Positions 23,593 through 39,820 of a DNA stretch of 64,000 bases are shown here, piece after piece. The translations under genes were made by a program, and so were the position numbers. This DNA is from the human T2T-CHM13v2.0 reference genome, Homo sapiens. The notes under the pieces were generated by a model. It did no database searches and was not told the origin of the DNA. It worked only from the letters and a program-made list of their open reading frames with translations. Every line of letters starts with the position of its first letter. The stretch's first letter is position 1. The DNA lies in assembly GCF_009914755.1 (NCBI RefSeq), contig NC_060931.1; one strand, written 5' to 3'.

Positions 23593-25389
23593 GTTCTTTA
23601 CATAAATGTTTTGTAGAATAAAAAAAAAAAAAGTTCTTCAAAAGAAATCTCAAATCTCCAAATGGAAACAGGTAAAAGTGGAGCTCCCCTGGTTCCACGG
23701 AGAACCTTTTTTGAGGAAACTTAGGCAACTCGCAGGTACCTTATGTCATGAGACAGAGTTTGAAAACTACAATTGACTATCTCTAAATTTCCTCCCAGGT
23801 CTAAAATGTGATGATAGTTACTACTTCAGTACATCATCCTTAAGGAAAATTATTAGGTCCACACTGTTTCTATCCTTTGAATTTTACACATAAATTTTGT
23901 AATCAAAAGTTTATTTGTAATATCAGATGGAATCAGATAATTGCTTTTTGTTTTTTCCACTGACAGGAACATAAGATTTTGTTGTGTAGCTTAAGTCAAA
24001 CGCAGTTTGGAATATATATTTTTTAAAAATTGTAACTTACATATCCAAATACAATTTTTCAAGAAGTAGAGTATTCAGTAGAAATTAATCTGTGAAAGAA
24101 GAGGAATTCAGCAGTGGCCTATTTGATGAATGATTTAACGTGCTTATTTCTTCCCTTTCATCAAAACTCTGTGTCCCCTTGTTTGCCCCCTCTGACTTCA
24201 TACTCTGGAGTTGACCAAGATCCCTCTTCCATCGGATTGTTCTGGGAATTTTGAAATAATCTGCTTTTTCCTCTCTTTCCCCTGTTGCTTCTGATGCCTT
24301 AGAATTACATTTTCCTCGCTGATTTAGTTTAGAAAAGAGAAAAGAGCTTCCATGACTAGTAGATTATCACTTTTGGGTTTGCTCTTGGAAGTGACAAGAT
24401 GCTAGGATCCCTCTTTGGAATGTAAAATTTATCTCTTATATAGAAAGGATATAAATGTAGCACCAGAGACTATAAAACTCTGATACTATCTACTGTACTG
24501 TATAGCTGAACGCCACAATGTGTCTGGTAATCTATTGACTATCATAAATGCTATTTCTACAGAAAAGTTAGGAGGTCCATATTTCGGGCAACCAATGTAT
24601 AGCTGAATGCAGAACAGTCATAGTTGGGTACTAACCATATATATGATTTATCCATCAACAGGTGCATATGCTCAGAAATTCTGTATCCATAAGAAATCAG
24701 ACTACTTTCTTTTCCTTTTGCAAGTAAATTGAATTTAGCCTGAGAGGCTGAGGGGAAATTTTCACATATAAGCCACGGTTTTGTGTTTTGTGTTTTGTTT
24801 TGTTTATAGATATAGTACTAACTGGATGGATGCGATAAAATTCATAGGTGGTACTAAGATACAATAGGATTTGTGAAATGGACAATTGTCTTGCATAAAT
24901 AGCAAGTAAAAAATCAAGCCTGTCCTTCATAAAAATTTTATTCTGGGGTGTGCTTGTTTTCCAAAAGTACCTCTGCTAAATCTCCTGTTAGTCCTGAAAC
25001 TAGAAGGCAGAAAAGCTTCTAGTGCTACAGCCAACTGCAGTGTAGCCTGAGAAACAGGCAACAAAAATAGAACACCAGGATTGCTGTGCGTGGGTGAGGC
25101 AGAAACCACATTATGAGCAAAAGCTTCCAGTATTATTTTAGAACCAATACAGAGCTCTGTACTTCTCTCCTCTCTCTTCCAAAAACACATACTACAAAAA
25201 TAAAATGAAATGAAATGTATGTGCATTTGCCCTCTTAGAATTATGATTCTTAATTTTTTTTCTTGCCTTCCTTTCTTTGGAAGCGAATCGCCAGTATGGA
25301 AACACAGTGTGTAAAGCAAGCTTCGAGAGAGGAAAGAGTTAATTGGTTTTAAGGCCCTGCGATAGAGAATTATGGTTGGAAAGATAGAG

Positions 25390-25590
25390 GCTGGACAGCT
25401 GGGTTTGCTGGGGTATTTTTAAATGCATTAATGCAGGCTCCAATCACTCGGCCATGCTTGACCTATTTTTGGCTCAGGCCGACCATTGTTCTATTTCTGT
25501 GCCTGTGGGCCATGCTGTTGTTGATTCATATGCAAATGGATTATCACTCGCTTTAGCCAACTTGAGCTGAGAGAGACTGAGAAAGGGGGA
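25390..25590 (+). promoter_or_regulatory. HDAC9: HDAC9 proximal promoter
   Basis: E-box CAGCTG 25396-25401; MEF2-like GTATTTTTAA 25413-25422; palindrome TGCATTAATGCA 25424-25435; CCAAT 25440-25444; MEF2 site CTATTTTTGG (=CCAAAAATAG) 25463-25472; octamer ATGCAAAT 25530-25537. HDAC9 is an established MEF2 target. Confidence 0.8.
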
Positions 25591-25694
25591 AGAGAGGCAC
25601 AGACACAGATAGGAGAAGGGCACCGGCTGGAGCCACTTGCAGGACTGAGGGTTTTTGCAACAAAACCCTAGCAGCCTGAAGAACTCTAAGCCAG
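25586..25694 (+). other. HDAC9: HDAC9 non-coding first exon (5' UTR); TSS position approximate
   Basis: Ends ...gaagaactctaagccag|gtttaa. The junction ctctaagccag-atggggtggctgg matches the HDAC9 mRNA 5' UTR as I recall it. Lies directly downstream of the promoter motif cluster. Confidence 0.8.
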
Positions 25695-26058
25695 GTTTAA
25701 TTGGTTTCTTTTTCTCGTGGGTAGACTTAATAATTTTCTACGTATTCTGACAAAGAAATAACCCCGAAGCACGTTCCTATTTCCCACCTGCTTGTAGTTT
25801 CCGGGATAACCTAAACTCCAGAGAGCTATAGCATCCACTCTGTCCTTTCTGCTTTGCACACAGGTTGGTAACATGGGAAAAGTGTCCAGGTCTTTTTAAA
25901 AGTGGATGCCCATTTGAGCAGAAAGGAAATCATTGTCGAAGTTGATCCTCTGCTGCTTCTCCTCAGGGAGGAGGGAGAACCAGCGAGGGTAGCTCCTGGG
26001 GCCGGTGCACTGAGCAGTGATGAATGTTTCATGTAGCTGAAGTAAGAGTGACTGGAAT

Positions 26059-26164
26059 ATGCTGCAGACAATTTACGAGAGTGACTCCTGTTTTTCCTCA
26101 GATGGGGTGGCTGGACGAGAGCAGCTCTTGGCTCAGCAAAGAATGCACAGTATGATCAGCTCAG
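26059..26164 (+). CDS. HDAC9: Putative alternative HDAC9 N-terminus MLQTIYESDSCFSSDGVAGREQLLAQQRMHSMISS (needs a transcript that includes the 3' end of intron 1)
   Basis: ATG 26059 (A at -3) is 84 nt upstream of and in frame with ATG 26143, with no stop between; in-frame TGA at 26038. Confidence 0.5.
26102..26155 (+). other. Overlapping out-of-frame uORF, 17 aa (MGWLDESSSWLSKECTV*)
   Basis: ATG is the first 3 nt of the exon with G at +4; TGA 26153-26155 lies inside the HDAC9 CDS. Confidence 0.65.
26143..26164 (+). CDS. HDAC9: HDAC9 first coding segment, MHSMISS plus 1 nt (phase 1); continues in a downstream exon outside the window
   Basis: ATG CAC AGT ATG ATC AGC TCA G|gtaaga matches the known HDAC9/MITR N-terminus MHSMISS(VDVK...). 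Strong donor CAG|GTAAGA at 26164/26165. Confidence 0.95.
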
Positions 26165-26603
26165 GTAAGATCCTCTTTCATAACTGAGACGTTTTAGGTT
26201 TGAAAGGGGGCTGGCTTGGGAAATGCAGCTAAGAAAAGCACCTCTCTTAAGGAAATTGCTGCTTTTTCGTGTTGATGTTGCTATTTTCTTGGTGCGTCTG
26301 TAGGGTTTAACTTAGATCCCTTCCATTACTGTTTCTGTGCATATTCAGTCTGCTTAGGGACAGCAGCTTCTGAATGAAATTGCAAACTATTGCTTCTGAT
26401 GAAAGATGAGACTGAGATAAGTAAAATGTAGTTGGGGGTGTTTTGCCTTTACTATGCAACTAGAAAAAGGAGCTGTGTACTGATTGTAAGCCTATTCTAA
26501 TAGGACTTTAAAAATCAGGTAAGTTCATATTGGGGCTTCAGTTTAAACTGCAGCCCCGCTAGCCTGACGATTTTATATTTACTCTGTGCCTACAGAAGCA
26601 CAT

Positions 26604-32315: not shown

Positions 32316-34137
32316 CGTGGATATTGGTGATAAGAAGTTTCTTCTTTGCAATTTTATTTACTTTTTAGTTTCCACAAATATAATAAAGTAAATGGACTAT
32401 GTTTATAATTTCCCTTTCAGTTGAACTATGGGTGTTGACTTTCTTTTCATGAAGATAATATATCTGTTTAAATACTAATGTAAGTATTTTTTACTAGTAT
32501 TGAATATAAGTTTTTTATTAATATTGAATAGATTGCCTTTCTTAGTACTGTCTATTGTTAGAAGAAGCCCCCTAATAAAGAGACTGAAGTAATTGTAGAA
32601 GAAACTGGATCTCTCTAAGCTATTAATCATGTTTTCTGAAGGAAGGAGAGTCAACATTGTGGCCTCATGCCTTACAAGCATTTATTATAAACGTGAATAG
32701 AGTATTCCTTTAATGTTGGCTTCGAGGCACACAAAATTTTTTTTGAGAAATATAATAATATATGAATTGTTTTCAATATATGAAAGGAGGATTATCTTAA
32801 AAATACTCAGAATGTGTTCGCCAGTAGGTTGTCACAAGTATTACATTTTAAGAATCATGAACAATTTTTACAATATGGAATGATAAGCACTACATTTTAA
32901 CATTTTTTTTCTGAATTTGAATGCTTTGAAAATAATTTAATTGAAATAAAAGCTCATGCAAATGACTTTAGAAAAGAAGCTTTCAAGAAGAAATTCAAAA
33001 ATATGTTGGCCTCTGCCTCAAATGAGTGTTGGCTGTGCCATGGTCCCCCCTGTTTTTGAAAGGAAGCTGAAGTGAGTGGTTAGCTTGGGATATGTGGTGT
33101 CCTTCCTGTTGGCAGTTTTCCCCTTTTCTTTTCCCAGTAAGTTGGCAATAAGGAAGCAAAGAAAGAGGAAATGCCTGGTGTTCCTAGTTCCATTCTTCTT
33201 CAACTAAGTTGGTTGCACAAAACAAATTTAATTTAAACAACATTTTTCACAATACTAAACGACCTACACTTTCAAGTGTTATCAGAGAACGTTATGTTTA
33301 GGTTTACTCTGAGTTGCTATGATTCATGAATATAAGAATAAATACTTCTTGTGTTTTTATAAGAATATATTTTCCATTCATTATCATAATGTTAACTTTT
33401 CCATAGTAAAATAAGTGATGGGCTTTTCGTGTACAGTGTTTCTTAAATACCCATTAATTAAATCCAATGAAAACCACTTTTAAGGAAGAAAGAAATTTAC
33501 CAAACCACAGAGTGTAACTAGTCATTTGCTTATGATTAAACTTTTTGCATGCTGATAAGGTTGGAAATACCCACGACTTTATTTTCCTGCTTCTCCTTAT
33601 GGTTCACCACTTGTATCAGAAACTTTTAAATTCATAATGTATGTTCATTATTGACCCAGTTGCAGCCATGTGGATGTTATTTTCAATTTGCTTGAGGTAC
33701 ATTTTGGTGAATGTCTAAGGCATGACATTTTCAAATGAGAATGTCATGAAGTTGTTTCAAAATTTGAAACTTGATATTAAAAACAAAATAAACCCCCCAA
33801 AATCCAGAAAACAAAAAATAAGTAAATTTCACTGAGTTTTCATTAAATGACATCATAGCTTGGGAGTTCTTGCTTTAGTAAAAATGTGTTTACCCAGAAG
33901 GTTTTCAGGGAACCCCATGTAGGGTGAATAAGAAAAAGCTCTTGTGTTAAGCACTGTTTTAACTTTATTCTTGATGATGCTTTTGAAATCTCATAATCAA
34001 AATTCAAGGGTGTATTTTAAGTACATGATTTTTACATTAGGAACTATCCATTTTAAGTTAGAAAGTTATCACCACCCGTTTTTGTTTTTTTCTGTCATAC
34101 TCCTCTCTGATCTTCTAGTTGCTTAGTTCCAATTTTA

Positions 34138-37591: not shown

Positions 37592-39049
37592 TGTTTTTAA
37601 AAGATAAATATGTTTTGTGTTTTGTTTGGTTATCTGCTGACCATTAGGAATTTCCAAAATGAAAGACAAAAATAGGAAACACACAGTAATTGAAATGTAT
37701 CTTAAAAGAAGTCAAGATGGAAATAAATTCAGAGAGTGGAAATGGAAGCAACTGAAGGAACAACATAACATGTTGCATCCTGACCACTCTTTTAATGAGC
37801 GGGTCGAAGACTTTGGAAGATGAAATTGTTTGAAGCTTTGGGAACTGGGGTGAAAGAGTCATTTATCGGTTCATTTTTTCACCCAAAACTGTTTTAAGAA
37901 CCAACCATATGACACAGAAGATACAGCTATTAAACAAAGCAAGGAGATACATGGTTGGTTGTTCAATGGAATGATGGATGGATAGATAAAGCTACTTGAG
38001 ATAGGAATTAGTATTAAGGTGAAATAAGAGAATGGGGTAGAAAGTGACTGATAGGGCAGTATTAACTAGGGTAGCTAGGGTAGTTAAGTGAAGGCTTTTG
38101 AGTCTGCTAACCTGTAAAGGGTATCTTTCTAAAAAAAGTAGATTTTCCTTCAACGTTTAATTTGGTCTAAGTCAAGTAGAACAGAAGCACAGTTAAAATA
38201 GATTAGGAATGGTCTGGATCTATTTCAATATTGTTACCTCTGCTTTGTGGAAAGGATGGGGAAGCATTTAGCAGTAGGTAGGTAAGGGAACTGGAGAAAG
38301 GCTGTTAGCTATGATTTTCTCTGTTTTTCATAGAGATCGTGAACCAAGTGCCTCTCTCTTGTATTCATATTATTAACTTGAAGTGAAGGCTCTTTTAGAA
38401 CTTGTTCCCTTTCCTTGTTCCTAAGGTTCACCCTTGTCCCTCATCTCACCTGCCCTGTCAATTGTGCTTAACATTTCTTACCCAAGCAGTATGAGTCATT
38501 GCTAGTAGTTCAGTGAAGCAAACAGTTTCTCTTTCTCAGAAACCCAAAAGAAGGGGAGCAGAGTATCTTCGCCAGCTGAAGTTAGAAGTCTTAGAACATT
38601 TTCTCATAAACACAATATTGCACACTTTTTAAAGGAGTATGAAATACAGTATTCATCACACAGGCATTTACTGTGTACCTACAACGTGCCAGGTATTTAA
38701 TTCAGGTAGATCATGGGTCAAATCACACCTTTGTTAGGCGGCTGGAGAATCATAACTTCCCAAGAAAATATTTAGCATACATAGCATACACAGTCGTCGT
38801 TGGGTTAGCAACTGGCTAGATTCGTGACATGTTGTTACAAAAAAATAGTTGTATAAGGAAGTATTTCATGAAGGTGACACATCTATTTTTTAAAAAGGGA
38901 GAAACAGCTAAGAGCTATTTTTCCTCACACATTATGCTTTGTGAATAGGGAACAATGGTGGATACACAGAGTAGGTTGGACAAACATTTTTGAGGGACTG
39001 ACACATTATCTCACATGCTTGATGCCTCATGGGGTTTTCCCTCAACATT

Positions 39050-39286
39050 CCAATTGGTCTAAGTCAAAGCACAATTAGAATAGAGCAGGAAGTGTTCTGG
39101 AGCTATTTTAATCTCCACTTAACTTCTGCCTTGTGGAAGGGGTGGGGAAGCCTTTATCAATGGGTAGGTGGGAGAACCAGGGGAAGACTGTCAGCTACGA
39201 TTTTCTCTAGCCTCAAGAAGACTGAGACCGAGCCAAACTCCTGGCCAACGTGCTTTGTGGATTCACAGTGTAGCTTGAGAAAAATG
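39050..39286 (+). promoter_or_regulatory. HDAC9: Probable alternative intronic HDAC9 promoter and first exon
   Basis: CCAATTGG 39050-39057, ETS site CAGGAAGTG 39086-39094, MEF2-like CTATTTTAAT 39103-39112, G-rich tract, then donor ATG|GTTAGT at 39286/39287. Consistent with my recollection of an HDAC9 alternative first exon ~13 kb into this intron. Confidence 0.55.
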
Positions 39287-39399
39287 GTTAGTGGTGACTT
39301 GTTTTTTCCCCCGAGTGATTATCTCATTCAATCAGTATTTATTGAGTCCTTGAAAGCTGTATTTTTTAAATGAGGCTGCTTGTTTATCTGTTTTTGTTG

Positions 39400-39820
39400 T
39401 TGTTGATTTCTTAGTCTAAGAATTACCAGGTATTTCCTTCTTCTGAGATACCTTAATGCTCTATTCCAACTGGTCATCACTGGGGAAAATTCTCTTACAA
39501 GCCCAATGCAAATGTTACCTAATGTCTGACACCATCACTGATTTCCCCTCACCTCTGTAATATTAATACTTCCCTAATTACGTGTATTTTTTTTCTCTTT
39601 CTCCCTTCTCTCTCGATCCTCATAGTCCTTTTATTACTCTCTTTAGAACATTTCCACTTTCTGTCTTACACTGTGACTGTGTATGTGTGTCCTCATCCCC
39701 CCAATTAGTTATATTATAAGCTCCAAGAGGAAAAGGATCATGTTTTACTTCTATTTTTATTCCCTACAGTACCTAGCATATAATTGATCCCTGAGACTAT
39801 TTTTAGATAAATGAATGATT
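39400..39820 (+). mobile_element. L2 3' portion
   Basis: ataagctccaagaggaaaaggatcatgtttt...tccctacagtacctagcat...aaatgaatga. Confidence 0.65.

What the first reader, a model, noticed from the sequence alone, without database searches (positions are those of the whole stretch)
26059..26164. Hidden alternative HDAC9 N-terminus carrying a perfect PP2A-B56 docking motif (LxxIxE), encoded by the splice-acceptor region
Seen: ATG 26059 (A at -3, in-frame stop 18 nt upstream) reads without a stop through the polypyrimidine tract and AG of intron 1 into the HDAC9 frame, giving MLQTIYESDSCFSS-DGVAGREQLLAQQR-MHSMISS. Residues 2-7 are L-Q-T-I-Y-E, followed by S-D-S. Established: LxxIxE is the short linear motif bound by PP2A B56 subunits, and acidic or phosphorylated residues just C-terminal strengthen binding. 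Class IIa HDAC nuclear/cytoplasmic localisation depends on phosphorylation of 14-3-3 sites, which PP2A reverses. Inference: promoter or splice choice could act as a switch that adds a phosphatase-recruiting tag, producing an HDAC9/MITR isoform that stays dephosphorylated, nuclear and MEF2-repressive. The same bases would serve as both splice signal and coding sequence. I have an unverified recollection of similar MLQTIYE starts in predicted class IIa HDAC isoforms (including HDAC5), which would make the module ancient.
Basis: partly seen in the sequence, partly recalled or inferred. Interest (0 to 1): 0.9.

Follow-up and report, generated by a model that had tools for sequence, protein, structure and literature searches.

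The report
Annotated alternative HDAC9 N-terminus, B56-like motif
An alternative start of the HDAC9 protein, read from what is otherwise the end of an intron, is real, ancient and already in public databases; it carries a short motif that could recruit the phosphatase PP2A-B56, an idea that still has to be tested.

Summary
ATG 26059 reads MLQTIYESDSCFSS through the intron-1 acceptor into exon 2, in the HDAC9 frame.

It is not hidden. Two human database entries (577 and 572 aa) start with exactly this sequence, as do 105 annotated HDAC9 models from mammals to coelacanth.

The human HDAC5 locus encodes the same module just upstream of the homologous acceptor: MLLVPKAQGLVE-MLQTIYETESCFSA-DG. HDAC4 does not.

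The sequence is under coding selection:
- 7 of the 9 HDAC9/HDAC5 nucleotide differences are at third codon positions.
- L-x-x-I-x-E is intact in 216 of 216 module-bearing proteins.

No paper found links it to B56.

- Published PP2A partners of class IIa HDACs are mostly B55.
- All four primate entries lack the first 14-3-3 site.

Verdict: a known isoform with a plausible but unproven new LxxIxE instance. Interest is moderate.

The parts
25589..25863 (+). HDAC9 exon 1 of the selected RefSeq transcript (non-coding)
   Evidence: The hub's annotation table gives the exon. It contains no ATG at all.
26024..26155 (+). Out-of-frame ORF of 43 aa. Its ATG aligns with the HDAC5 upstream start (MLLVPKAQ...) but is shifted by 1 nt relative to the module frame in human HDAC9. 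It overlaps both HDAC9 starts.
   Evidence: ORFs from unnamed genomic contigs (P0002-P0005, whose module spelling ESESCFSS...VSGRE matches the bird, crocodile and turtle models) keep this stretch in frame but have no Met there.
26038..26040 (+). In-frame TGA that closes the frame upstream of the alternative start
26059..26061 (+). Alternative start codon (M of MLQTIYE), context tggaatATGc
   Evidence: All 105 annotated HDAC9 models carrying the module (P0008-P0112) begin at this Met.
26059..26101 (+). 43-nt 5' extension of exon 2, coding MLQTIYESDSCFSS plus the first base of Asp15. In the canonical transcript the same bases are the 3' end of the 238-nt intron 1.
   Evidence: Coding selection is shown: against HDAC5 there are 5 synonymous, 3 replacement and 8 identical codons.
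26062..26079 (+). Codons for L2-Q-T-I5-Y-E7, the L-x-x-I-x-E core
   Evidence: The core is intact in 216 of 216 module-bearing proteins.
26080..26088 (+). Codons for S8-D9-S10 (motif positions 7-9), acidic or phosphorylatable
   Evidence: Across homologues these positions read S/T/A, D/E and S/P. The review states that D/E or pS/pT at P7-9 enhance B56 binding.
26072..26076 (+). TTTAC, the only yUnAy branch-point-like site in the last 60 nt of intron 1. Its A (26075) lies 27 nt before exon 2, inside the Ile5-Tyr6 codons.
   Evidence: This is a consensus match only; use as a branch point is inferred.
26080..26101 (+). Pyrimidine tract (15 of 20 bases) and acceptor AG (26100-26101). The same bases code SDSCFSS.
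26102..26164 (+). HDAC9 exon 2. 26102-26142 (the codons for DGVAGREQLLAQQR, minus the first base of Asp15) is 5' UTR in the selected transcript but coding in the MLQTIYE isoform and in isoforms with other upstream first exons.
   Evidence: Hub table; (P0113-P0121 and P0363 join other N-termini in frame to DGVAGREQ).
26102..26155 (+). 17-aa out-of-frame uORF. It starts at the first base of exon 2 and overlaps the canonical start.
26143..26145 (+). Canonical HDAC9 start codon (MHSMISS), in the same frame as ATG 26059
   Evidence: Hub table

Best explanation
Bases 26059-26164 are the coding start of an alternative HDAC9 first exon, a 5'-extended exon 2. Its transcript starts inside, or retains, the 238-nt intron 1. 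Translation from ATG 26059 adds 28 residues, MLQTIYESDSCFSS-DGVAGREQLLAQQR, in front of the canonical MHSMISS. This part is shown; I put it at about 0.95.

The 14-residue module [M/V]LQTIYE[S/T][D/E]SCFS[S/A] is shared with HDAC5 and is found from teleosts to mammals. It therefore predates the HDAC5/HDAC9 duplication (inferred).

Its most likely molecular role is a short linear docking motif for the B56 regulatory subunits of PP2A. L2, I5 and E7 would sit in the conserved B56 groove, and S/T8, D/E9 and S10 would add negative charge, constitutively or after phosphorylation. That would bring PP2A-B56 to isoforms made from this start and favour removal of phosphates elsewhere on the protein. Candidates are the remaining basophilic 14-3-3 sites. 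This mechanistic part is inferred and untested; I put it at about 0.4.

Part of the extreme conservation of the non-core residues probably reflects the second job of the same bases as branch-point region, pyrimidine tract and acceptor of intron 1.
For: Coding status:
- ATG, an open frame and an upstream stop are present.
- Two human entries (P0016, 577 aa, 'histone deacetylase 9 [Homo sapiens]'; P0010, UniProt A0A9L9PY89_HUMAN), orangutan Q5R6M0 and a chimpanzee entry start with exactly this sequence.
- 111 of the 120 listed HDAC9 hits carry the module.
- 79 of the 99 HDAC5 hits carry it, as do 26 of the 31 new representative-library hits, including teleost, Arapaima, lungfish and coelacanth proteins.
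- HDAC9 and HDAC5 differ at 9 nt over 16 codons, 7 of them at third positions (binomial P = 0.008). That is 5 synonymous, 3 conservative and 8 identical codons.
- The module plus DG is 13/16 identical between the paralogues, against 6/19 for the rest of exon 2 and 11/29 for exon 3 up to the Gln domain.

B56 reading:
- The review definition is [LMFI]xx[ILV]xEx, with L at P1 and I at P4 preferred, E6 invariant, and D/E or pS/pT at P2, 7, 8 and 9 enhancing binding (section read in full). All of these are met by sequence.
- BubR1 LSPIIEDS and RacGAP1 LSTIDE are close look-alikes.
- L..I.E is intact in 216/216.
- No Pfam domain covers residues 1-64. The Atlas model of the whole protein has pLDDT 0.49, consistent with disorder.
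- PP2A-B56 handles basophilic sites far better than proline-directed ones. Class IIa 14-3-3 sites are written by basophilic kinases and erased by PP2A.
Against: - No binding test could be run.
- The non-core residues Q3, T4 and Y6, and SCFS, are as invariant as the core: 1 change in 24 distinct 15-mers at T4 and none at Q3 or Y6. That is more than a B56 motif needs.
- In HDAC9 the motif sits at residues 2-7, so there is no room for the N-terminal basic patch that boosts many B56 clients. HDAC5's 12 upstream residues hold a single Lys.
- Reported PP2A regulatory subunits are B55alpha (HDAC4, 5, 7) and B55delta (HDAC4). B56 is noted only for HDAC4, which lacks the module in human. HDAC9 has 0 mentions in that review.
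- All 4 primate entries with this start lack the segment with the first 14-3-3 site and NLS.
- The RefSeq table supplied lists no human exon covering 26059-26101.
- Five ATGs in intron 1 precede 26059 if the transcript starts at exon 1.
- The proteins were found by searching with the module, so decayed versions would be under-sampled.
Confidence: 0.4

Rival explanations
1. The extension is a genuine conserved alternative N-terminus, but the module serves another purpose and its fit to LxxIxE is incidental. It could be an unidentified partner's binding site that reads the whole 14 residues. It could also be an N-terminal signal: a Met-Leu start is a typical NatC-type acetylation substrate (recalled knowledge), with effects on stability or targeting.
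For: - Q3, T4, Y6 and S10-C-F-S are invariant beyond the B56 core.
- No published B56 link to HDAC5 or HDAC9 was found.
- Strict L..I.E occurs at about 2.8e-4 per residue by chance, so many proteome matches are non-functional.
Against: - In HDAC5 the module is internal (residues 14-27) and in four hystricognath entries the preceding Met is Val. An N-terminal-signal role therefore cannot be the shared function.
- No other motif class that I know fits as well.
- No Pfam family or PDB chain matches the peptide, so there is nothing positive to point to.
Confidence: 0.33
2. The extension is translated but functionally near-neutral. Its conservation is driven mainly by the overlapping RNA signals (branch point, pyrimidine tract, acceptor of intron 1) that the canonical transcripts need.
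For: - The only yUnAy site in the last 60 nt lies in the Ile-Tyr codons, and SCFSS is encoded by the pyrimidine tract.
- DNA just upstream of the ATG also resembles the HDAC5 and sauropsid-type sequences, although it is out of frame in human.
Against: - 7 of 9 paralogue differences fall on third codon positions, and replacements are conservative (S/T, D/E, S/A). This is the signature of selection on the protein, not on an RNA signal.
- Human HDAC4 splices the homologous acceptor with an unrelated upstream sequence, so the splice function does not require this sequence.
- The ATG or frame is kept in 216/216.
Confidence: 0.15
3. A chance ORF in an intron that annotation pipelines propagated. It is not made as protein.
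For: - The supplied RefSeq table has no human exon here.
- Most non-human entries are computational models.
- No peptide or Ribo-seq evidence was seen.
Against: - Two paralogous loci, separated since early vertebrates, keep the same 14 codons with synonymous drift.
- Only these two loci in 3.1 Gb match.
- An orangutan entry in UniProt (Q5R6M0) carries the start. By my recollection it is cDNA-derived; this was not verified here.
Confidence: 0.02

Closest known systems
B56-docking LxxIxE short linear motifs (BubR1 KARD LSPIIEDS, Repo-Man LSPIPE, RacGAP1 LSTIDE)
   Same: L at P1, I at P4 and E at P6, with acidic or phosphorylatable residues at P7-9. T at P3 as in RacGAP1. Outside any folded domain. 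Conserved across orthologues.
   Different: Binding is not shown. The motif sits at the very N-terminus (residues 2-7) in HDAC9. There is no Ser/Pro at P2/P3 for CDK priming and no upstream basic patch. The flanking and non-core residues are far more conserved than in typical instances.
HDAC5 alternative N-terminus MLLVPKAQGLVE-MLQTIYETESCFSA-DGMSGREP (human chr17 locus L002; annotated in marmoset, rodents, bats, whales, opossum, reptiles, Arapaima, lungfish)
   Same: A paralogous module directly upstream of the homologous acceptor, in the same codon phase (Asp codon split G|AT). 11 of 14 residues are identical, and it is an alternative to a short upstream coding exon.
   Different: HDAC5 starts 12 codons further upstream. 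In human HDAC9 the ATG at that place (26024) is 1 nt out of frame. No human HDAC5 entry with this start appeared among the 99 hits, but the library is clustered at 90% identity, so this says little.
Other HDAC9 N-terminal isoforms and MITR/HDRP
   Same: Alternative first exons join the same acceptor in frame, so DGVAGREQLLAQQR is coding in several isoforms (P0113-P0121, and P0363 MMSSPVQS|DG). 57 of 105 module-bearing models have the MITR-type C-terminus.
   Different: Those N-termini come from distant upstream exons and carry no LxxIxE. The selected RefSeq transcript starts at MHSMISS.
PP2A control of class IIa HDACs (HDAC4 N-terminus-PP2A; B55alpha for HDAC4/5/7; B55delta for HDAC4; B56alpha found with HDAC4 in HeLa)
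   Different: The known routes use B55 subunits or an undefined HDAC4 N-terminal contact. No docking motif has been defined, and none of these papers mentions HDAC9 or this N-terminus.

Membership tests
Protein-coding alternative first exon (5'-extended exon 2) of HDAC9 | Start codon and open frame continuous with the downstream coding sequence | tested here: met
Protein-coding alternative first exon (5'-extended exon 2) of HDAC9 | ATG, frame and residues conserved across species and paralogues, with synonymous drift | tested here: met
   The module is intact in 216/216. 7 of 9 HDAC9/HDAC5 nucleotide differences are at third positions.
Protein-coding alternative first exon (5'-extended exon 2) of HDAC9 | Transcripts that contain 26059-26101 | tested here: inconclusive
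   Human, chimpanzee and orangutan protein entries with this start exist. No transcript, CAGE or long-read data could be seen here, and the supplied RefSeq table has no such exon.
Protein-coding alternative first exon (5'-extended exon 2) of HDAC9 | Evidence of translation (initiation Ribo-seq, N-terminal peptide) | not testable with these tools
   No such data are held. The strings MLQTIYE and LQTIYE occur in 0 papers.
PP2A-B56 docking motif [LMFI]xx[ILV]xEx | L/M/F/I at P1, I/L/V at P4, invariant E at P6 | tested here: met
   L2, I5 and E7, the preferred residues. Kept in 216/216.
PP2A-B56 docking motif [LMFI]xx[ILV]xEx | Acidic or phosphorylatable residues at P2 or P7-9 that raise affinity | tested here: met
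   P7-9 are S-D-S in HDAC9 and T-E-S in HDAC5. P2 is Gln, so there is no priming site there.
PP2A-B56 docking motif [LMFI]xx[ILV]xEx | Lies in an accessible, intrinsically disordered region | tested here: inconclusive
   No Pfam domain covers residues 1-64. The Atlas whole-protein model has pLDDT 0.49. A per-residue model could not be made.
PP2A-B56 docking motif [LMFI]xx[ILV]xEx | Basic patch within about 15 residues N-terminal (an enhancer, not obligatory) | tested here: not met
   The motif starts at residue 2 of HDAC9. The 12 residues upstream in HDAC5 hold one Lys.
PP2A-B56 docking motif [LMFI]xx[ILV]xEx | Direct binding to the B56 groove that is lost on mutating P1/P4/P6 | not testable with these tools
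This needs ITC or pull-down.
PP2A-B56 docking motif [LMFI]xx[ILV]xEx | B56-dependent dephosphorylation of the carrier or its partners | not testable with these tools
   Experimental only.

The most novel reading that the evidence does not exclude
MLQTIYE[S/T][D/E]S is a true, previously undescribed B56-docking motif that vertebrates have kept for over 400 million years on promoter-specific isoforms of two class IIa HDACs (HDAC5 and HDAC9/MITR) but not on HDAC4. Start-site choice would then decide whether the repressor carries its own PP2A-B56. That would set an isoform-specific phosphorylation set-point for 14-3-3 binding and MEF2 repression, with the codons doubling as the splice signals that exclude the motif from the other isoforms.
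Probability: 0.3. Interest if true: 0.6.

Novelty: new member of a known kind. Interest (0 to 1): 0.4.

Why it matters
Class IIa HDACs are switched between nucleus and cytoplasm by phosphorylation. How PP2A is aimed at them is only partly understood: B55 subunits are implicated, but no docking motif is defined.

A deeply conserved module exists only on alternative-start isoforms of HDAC5 and HDAC9 and matches the best-defined PP2A targeting motif. That gives a concrete, cheap test with peptide binding and an AxxAxA mutant. It would also add isoform choice to the regulation of MEF2 repression in muscle, heart, vessels and neurons.

Proteome-wide motif scans built on canonical sequences would miss it, because the canonical HDAC9 and HDAC5 entries start elsewhere.

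If binding fails, the module remains the best-conserved stretch N-terminal to the Gln-rich domain, with no assigned function.

Tried and rejected
Tools that did not answer:
- Complex prediction (B56delta core alignment A2 with HDAC9 residues 1-60, alignment A3) was not available. Nothing was folded.
- Structure prediction on A3 was not accepted twice, so there is no per-residue disorder estimate.
- Haberland 2007 (PMC1800816, HDAC9 promoter) is not held.

Searches that came back empty or negative:
- The chr1:101362862 match to the MLQTIYE pattern reads MFQTIYENMTKFYY with no further similarity. It is chance.
- HDAC4: the homologous exon was found 46 kb upstream of the Gln exon. Its upstream frame reads ...SF*SQCLLCSP|DG and aligns as noise. 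A regex for .Q.I.E[ST][DE] found nothing on the HDAC4-coding strand (three frames) of the 200 kb scanned.
- The full-length fish proteins with the module score as HDAC5-like or HDAC9-like, none as HDAC4-like. Short genomic ORFs such as P0345 and P0353 could not be assigned.
- No hit outside vertebrate class IIa HDACs was credible in the representative library. P0362 and P0365 are spurious partial matches.
- No PDB chain resembles the peptide. The Atlas feature search gave no usable hit.
- No MEF2-like site YTAWWWWTAR lies in 24500-26300.

Literature:
- The HDAC9 promoter-switch paper (PMC12575860, passages only) names Ensembl transcripts, but I could not tie them to ATG 26059.
- MRBLE-pep paper: my search terms found nothing.
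- Supplementary motif lists of the B56 papers (for example Hertz 2016, not held or read) were not seen and could contain this isoform.

Full report
OBSERVATION. The sequence is as described. ATG 26059-26061 sits in tggaatATGc, with A at -3. An in-frame TGA at 26038-26040 lies 18 nt upstream. The frame runs through the pyrimidine tract and the AG at 26100-26101 into exon 2 (26102-26164). It reads MLQTIYESDSCFSS-DGVAGREQLLAQQR-MHSMISS, in the same frame as the canonical start at 26143. An ORF of this size upstream of an acceptor is unremarkable on its own. Strict L..I.E occurs 36 times in 127,996 six-frame residues of this window, about 0.0025 expected in a 14-residue extension. Only one of the 36 is followed by three S/T/D/E residues.

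IT IS A CONSERVED CODING SEQUENCE. I searched the window's own genome with the 35-residue peptide. Besides the peptide itself, it found one place on contig 17, minus strand. That locus reads MLLVPKAQGLVE-MLQTIYETESCFSA-DGMSGREPSLEILPRTSLHSIPVT and then a GT donor. It lies 17 kb upstream of a match to the Pfam HDAC4_Gln domain, and its hits are named HDAC5. A pattern back-translated from MLQTIYE has 3 matches in 3.1 Gb, against 0 for the reversed control. They are HDAC9, HDAC5 and a chance hit on chr1 that reads MFQTIYENMTKF. A longer pattern for LQxIYExD/ExC has exactly 2, HDAC9 and HDAC5. Over the 16 codons M..G the two loci differ at 9 nucleotides, 7 of them at third positions (binomial P = 0.008). 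That gives 5 synonymous, 3 conservative (S/T, D/E, S/A) and 8 identical codons. The module plus DG is 13/16 identical between the paralogues. The rest of exon 2 is 6/19 and exon 3 up to the Gln-rich domain is 11/29. The module is thus the best-conserved stretch N-terminal to that domain.

IT IS NOT HIDDEN. The protein search with a 41-residue window translation returned 709 proteins at E <= 1, of which the best 120 were listed. Of these 120, 111 carry the module. They include:
- 'histone deacetylase 9 [Homo sapiens]' (P0016, 577 aa);
- UniProt A0A9L9PY89_HUMAN (P0010, 572 aa);
- orangutan Q5R6M0, which I recall as cDNA-derived (not verified here);
- a chimpanzee entry;
- models from carnivores, ruminants, rodents, a marsupial, birds, crocodile, turtles, salamanders and coelacanth.
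The other 9 join different N-termini in frame to DGVAGREQ. The 14 residues that are 5' UTR in the selected RefSeq transcript are therefore coding in several isoforms.

The HDAC5 search listed 99 proteins. Of these, 79 carry the module, usually preceded by MLLVPKAQGLVE. One is truncated inside it, and 19 start MNSPNES[A]DG. A two-sequence profile run over 1.84 billion representatives gave 45 hits at E <= 1e-3, and 26 of the 31 new ones carry the module. Among them are fish proteins that score as HDAC5-like (P0356, P0350) or HDAC9-like (P0367) against the human Gln exons. In all, 216 of 250 proteins examined have the module. There are 24 distinct 15-mers, L..I.E is intact in 216/216, Q3 and Y6 never change, and T4 changes once. 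The preceding residue is Met in 212 and Val in 4. One caveat applies: the proteins were found by searching with the module, so decayed copies are under-sampled.

HDAC4 LACKS IT. I located the homologous human HDAC4 exon ([24 protein letters not shown]) in 200 kb fetched upstream of the Gln exon. Its upstream frame reads ...SF*SQCLLCSP|DG and aligns with the other two only at the acceptor. Entry P0363 shows HDAC9 also using a short first coding exon, MMSSPVQS|DG, the counterpart of HDAC5's MNSPNES. The ancestral gene therefore probably had two alternative N-termini, of which human HDAC4 keeps one (inferred).

ANATOMY.
- Intron 1 is only 238 nt.
- Exon 1 has no ATG. The intron has five before 26059 (25873, 25906, 26020, 26024, 26031). 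A transcript starting at exon 1 and retaining the intron would be a poor template, so a start site inside the intron is more likely (inferred).
- ATG 26024 aligns with the HDAC5 upstream start but is 1 nt out of frame in human HDAC9. ORFs from unnamed genomic contigs (P0002-P0005) keep that stretch in frame but have no Met there; their module spelling (ESESCFSS...VSGRE) matches the bird, crocodile and turtle models.
- The only yUnAy site in the last 60 nt of the intron (TTTAC, A at 26075) lies in the Ile5-Tyr6 codons.
- SCFSS is encoded by the pyrimidine tract.
The same bases really do double as splice signal and codons, which probably adds to their invariance.

THE B56 READING. A review section read in full defines the motif as [LMFI]xx[ILV]xEx. 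L at P1 and I at P4 are preferred and E6 is invariant. D/E or pS/pT at P2, 7, 8 and 9 enhance binding, and a basic patch within about 15 residues N-terminal gives a further boost (PMC10970375). LQTIYE-SDS in HDAC9 and LQTIYE-TES in HDAC5 meet the core and the P7-9 features. They resemble BubR1 LSPIIEDS and RacGAP1 LSTIDE (passages). They have no P2 priming site and no basic patch. No Pfam domain covers residues 1-64. No PDB chain resembles the peptide. The Atlas model of the whole protein has pLDDT 0.49. This is consistent with disorder but is not residue-level evidence. PP2A-B56 dephosphorylates basophilic sites far better than proline-directed ones (PMC7327492 passage). That suits the class IIa 14-3-3 sites (PMC9902726 passages). 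Binding is therefore untested.

WHAT IS IN PRINT. The strings MLQTIYE, LQTIYE and LLVPKAQG occur in 0 papers of the searchable library. Searches for LxxIxE+HDAC (11 papers), HDAC9+B56+PP2A (8), HDAC5+B56+docking motif (2) and PPP2R5+class IIa+HDAC (10) gave no paper that links a class IIa HDAC to an LxxIxE motif, in the listings and passages I read. A PP2A-epigenetics review tabulates B55alpha for HDAC4/5/7 and B56 (sites not determined) for HDAC4, and does not mention HDAC9 (PMC8807117). Another paper notes HDAC4 with B56alpha in HeLa cells and B55delta in myoblasts (PMC6609635). Supplementary motif lists, and Hertz 2016 itself, were not seen.

AGAINST THE SWITCH MODEL. Of the 105 annotated HDAC9 models with the module, 57 end like MITR and 45 are longer than 800 aa. 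The segment RKTASEPNLK..., which holds the first 14-3-3 site and the NLS, is present in 61 and absent in 44. All four primate entries, including the two human ones, lack it. By recollection (Petrie 2003, not read), forms without this exon are cytoplasmic. The specific prediction of a nuclear, MEF2-repressive isoform is thus not favoured for the forms that are actually deposited for primates. The second site (RTQSAP) is still present.

VERDICT. The alternative N-terminus is real, ancient and already annotated. The new element is the recognition that its invariant core is a textbook B56 motif shared by HDAC5 and HDAC9. My estimates are about 0.95 that it is a genuine coding start, about 0.4 that B56 docking is its function, and about 0.3 for the full isoform-switch model. 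Interest is moderate (0.4). It is a cheap, well-posed experiment rather than a surprise.

Noticed in passing
window 26102-26155: The first three bases of exon 2 are ATG, out of frame. In the canonical mRNA this opens a 17-aa uORF (MGWLDESSSWLSKECTV) that overlaps the annotated start at 26143. The ATG is a by-product of the conserved Asp-Gly codons (G|AT GGN). It is also present at the HDAC5 and HDAC4 acceptors (cagATGGG, cagATGGA).
   Followed up: partly
window 26024-26058: ATG 26024 aligns with the HDAC5 upstream start codon but is 1 nt out of frame with the module in human HDAC9. ORFs from unnamed genomic contigs (..WWIFHVAEVQTDWNMLQTIYE) keep the frame but have Ile instead of Met; their module spelling matches the bird, crocodile and turtle models. 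This looks like a lost 12-residue leader, now an overlapping uORF.
   Followed up: partly
L002 about 1560-1575 (HDAC5 acceptor, minus strand): The HDAC5 acceptor reads tcagcagAT, a tandem CAGCAG. That fits the two annotated canonical forms MNSPNESDG and MNSPNESADG, which differ by one Ala.
   Followed up: no
window 32421-32479 and 39110-39286: The 59-nt annotated exon (AG/GT flanks) has stops in every frame when placed after exon 2, so it looks like a poison or non-coding exon. The 177-nt exon has no acceptor AG and lies inside the RefSeq enhancer 38476-39675, so it looks like an alternative first exon.
   Followed up: no
G000:C1:101362862-101362882 (L005): This is the only other genomic match to the MLQTIYE pattern. 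It reads MFQTIYENMTKFYYHLD with no further similarity and is a chance match.
   Followed up: yes
G000:C3:52406620-52407852 and G000:C7:139332004-139333863, C7:56463313-56464144: Long intron-less matches to the B56 Pfam domain with internal stops. They look like processed PPP2R5 pseudogenes.
   Followed up: no
P0363 (representative library): A 945-aa HDAC9-like protein starts MMSSPVQS|DGVAGREQ. This short first coding exon is the counterpart of HDAC5's MNSPNES, which supports two ancestral alternative N-termini.
   Followed up: partly
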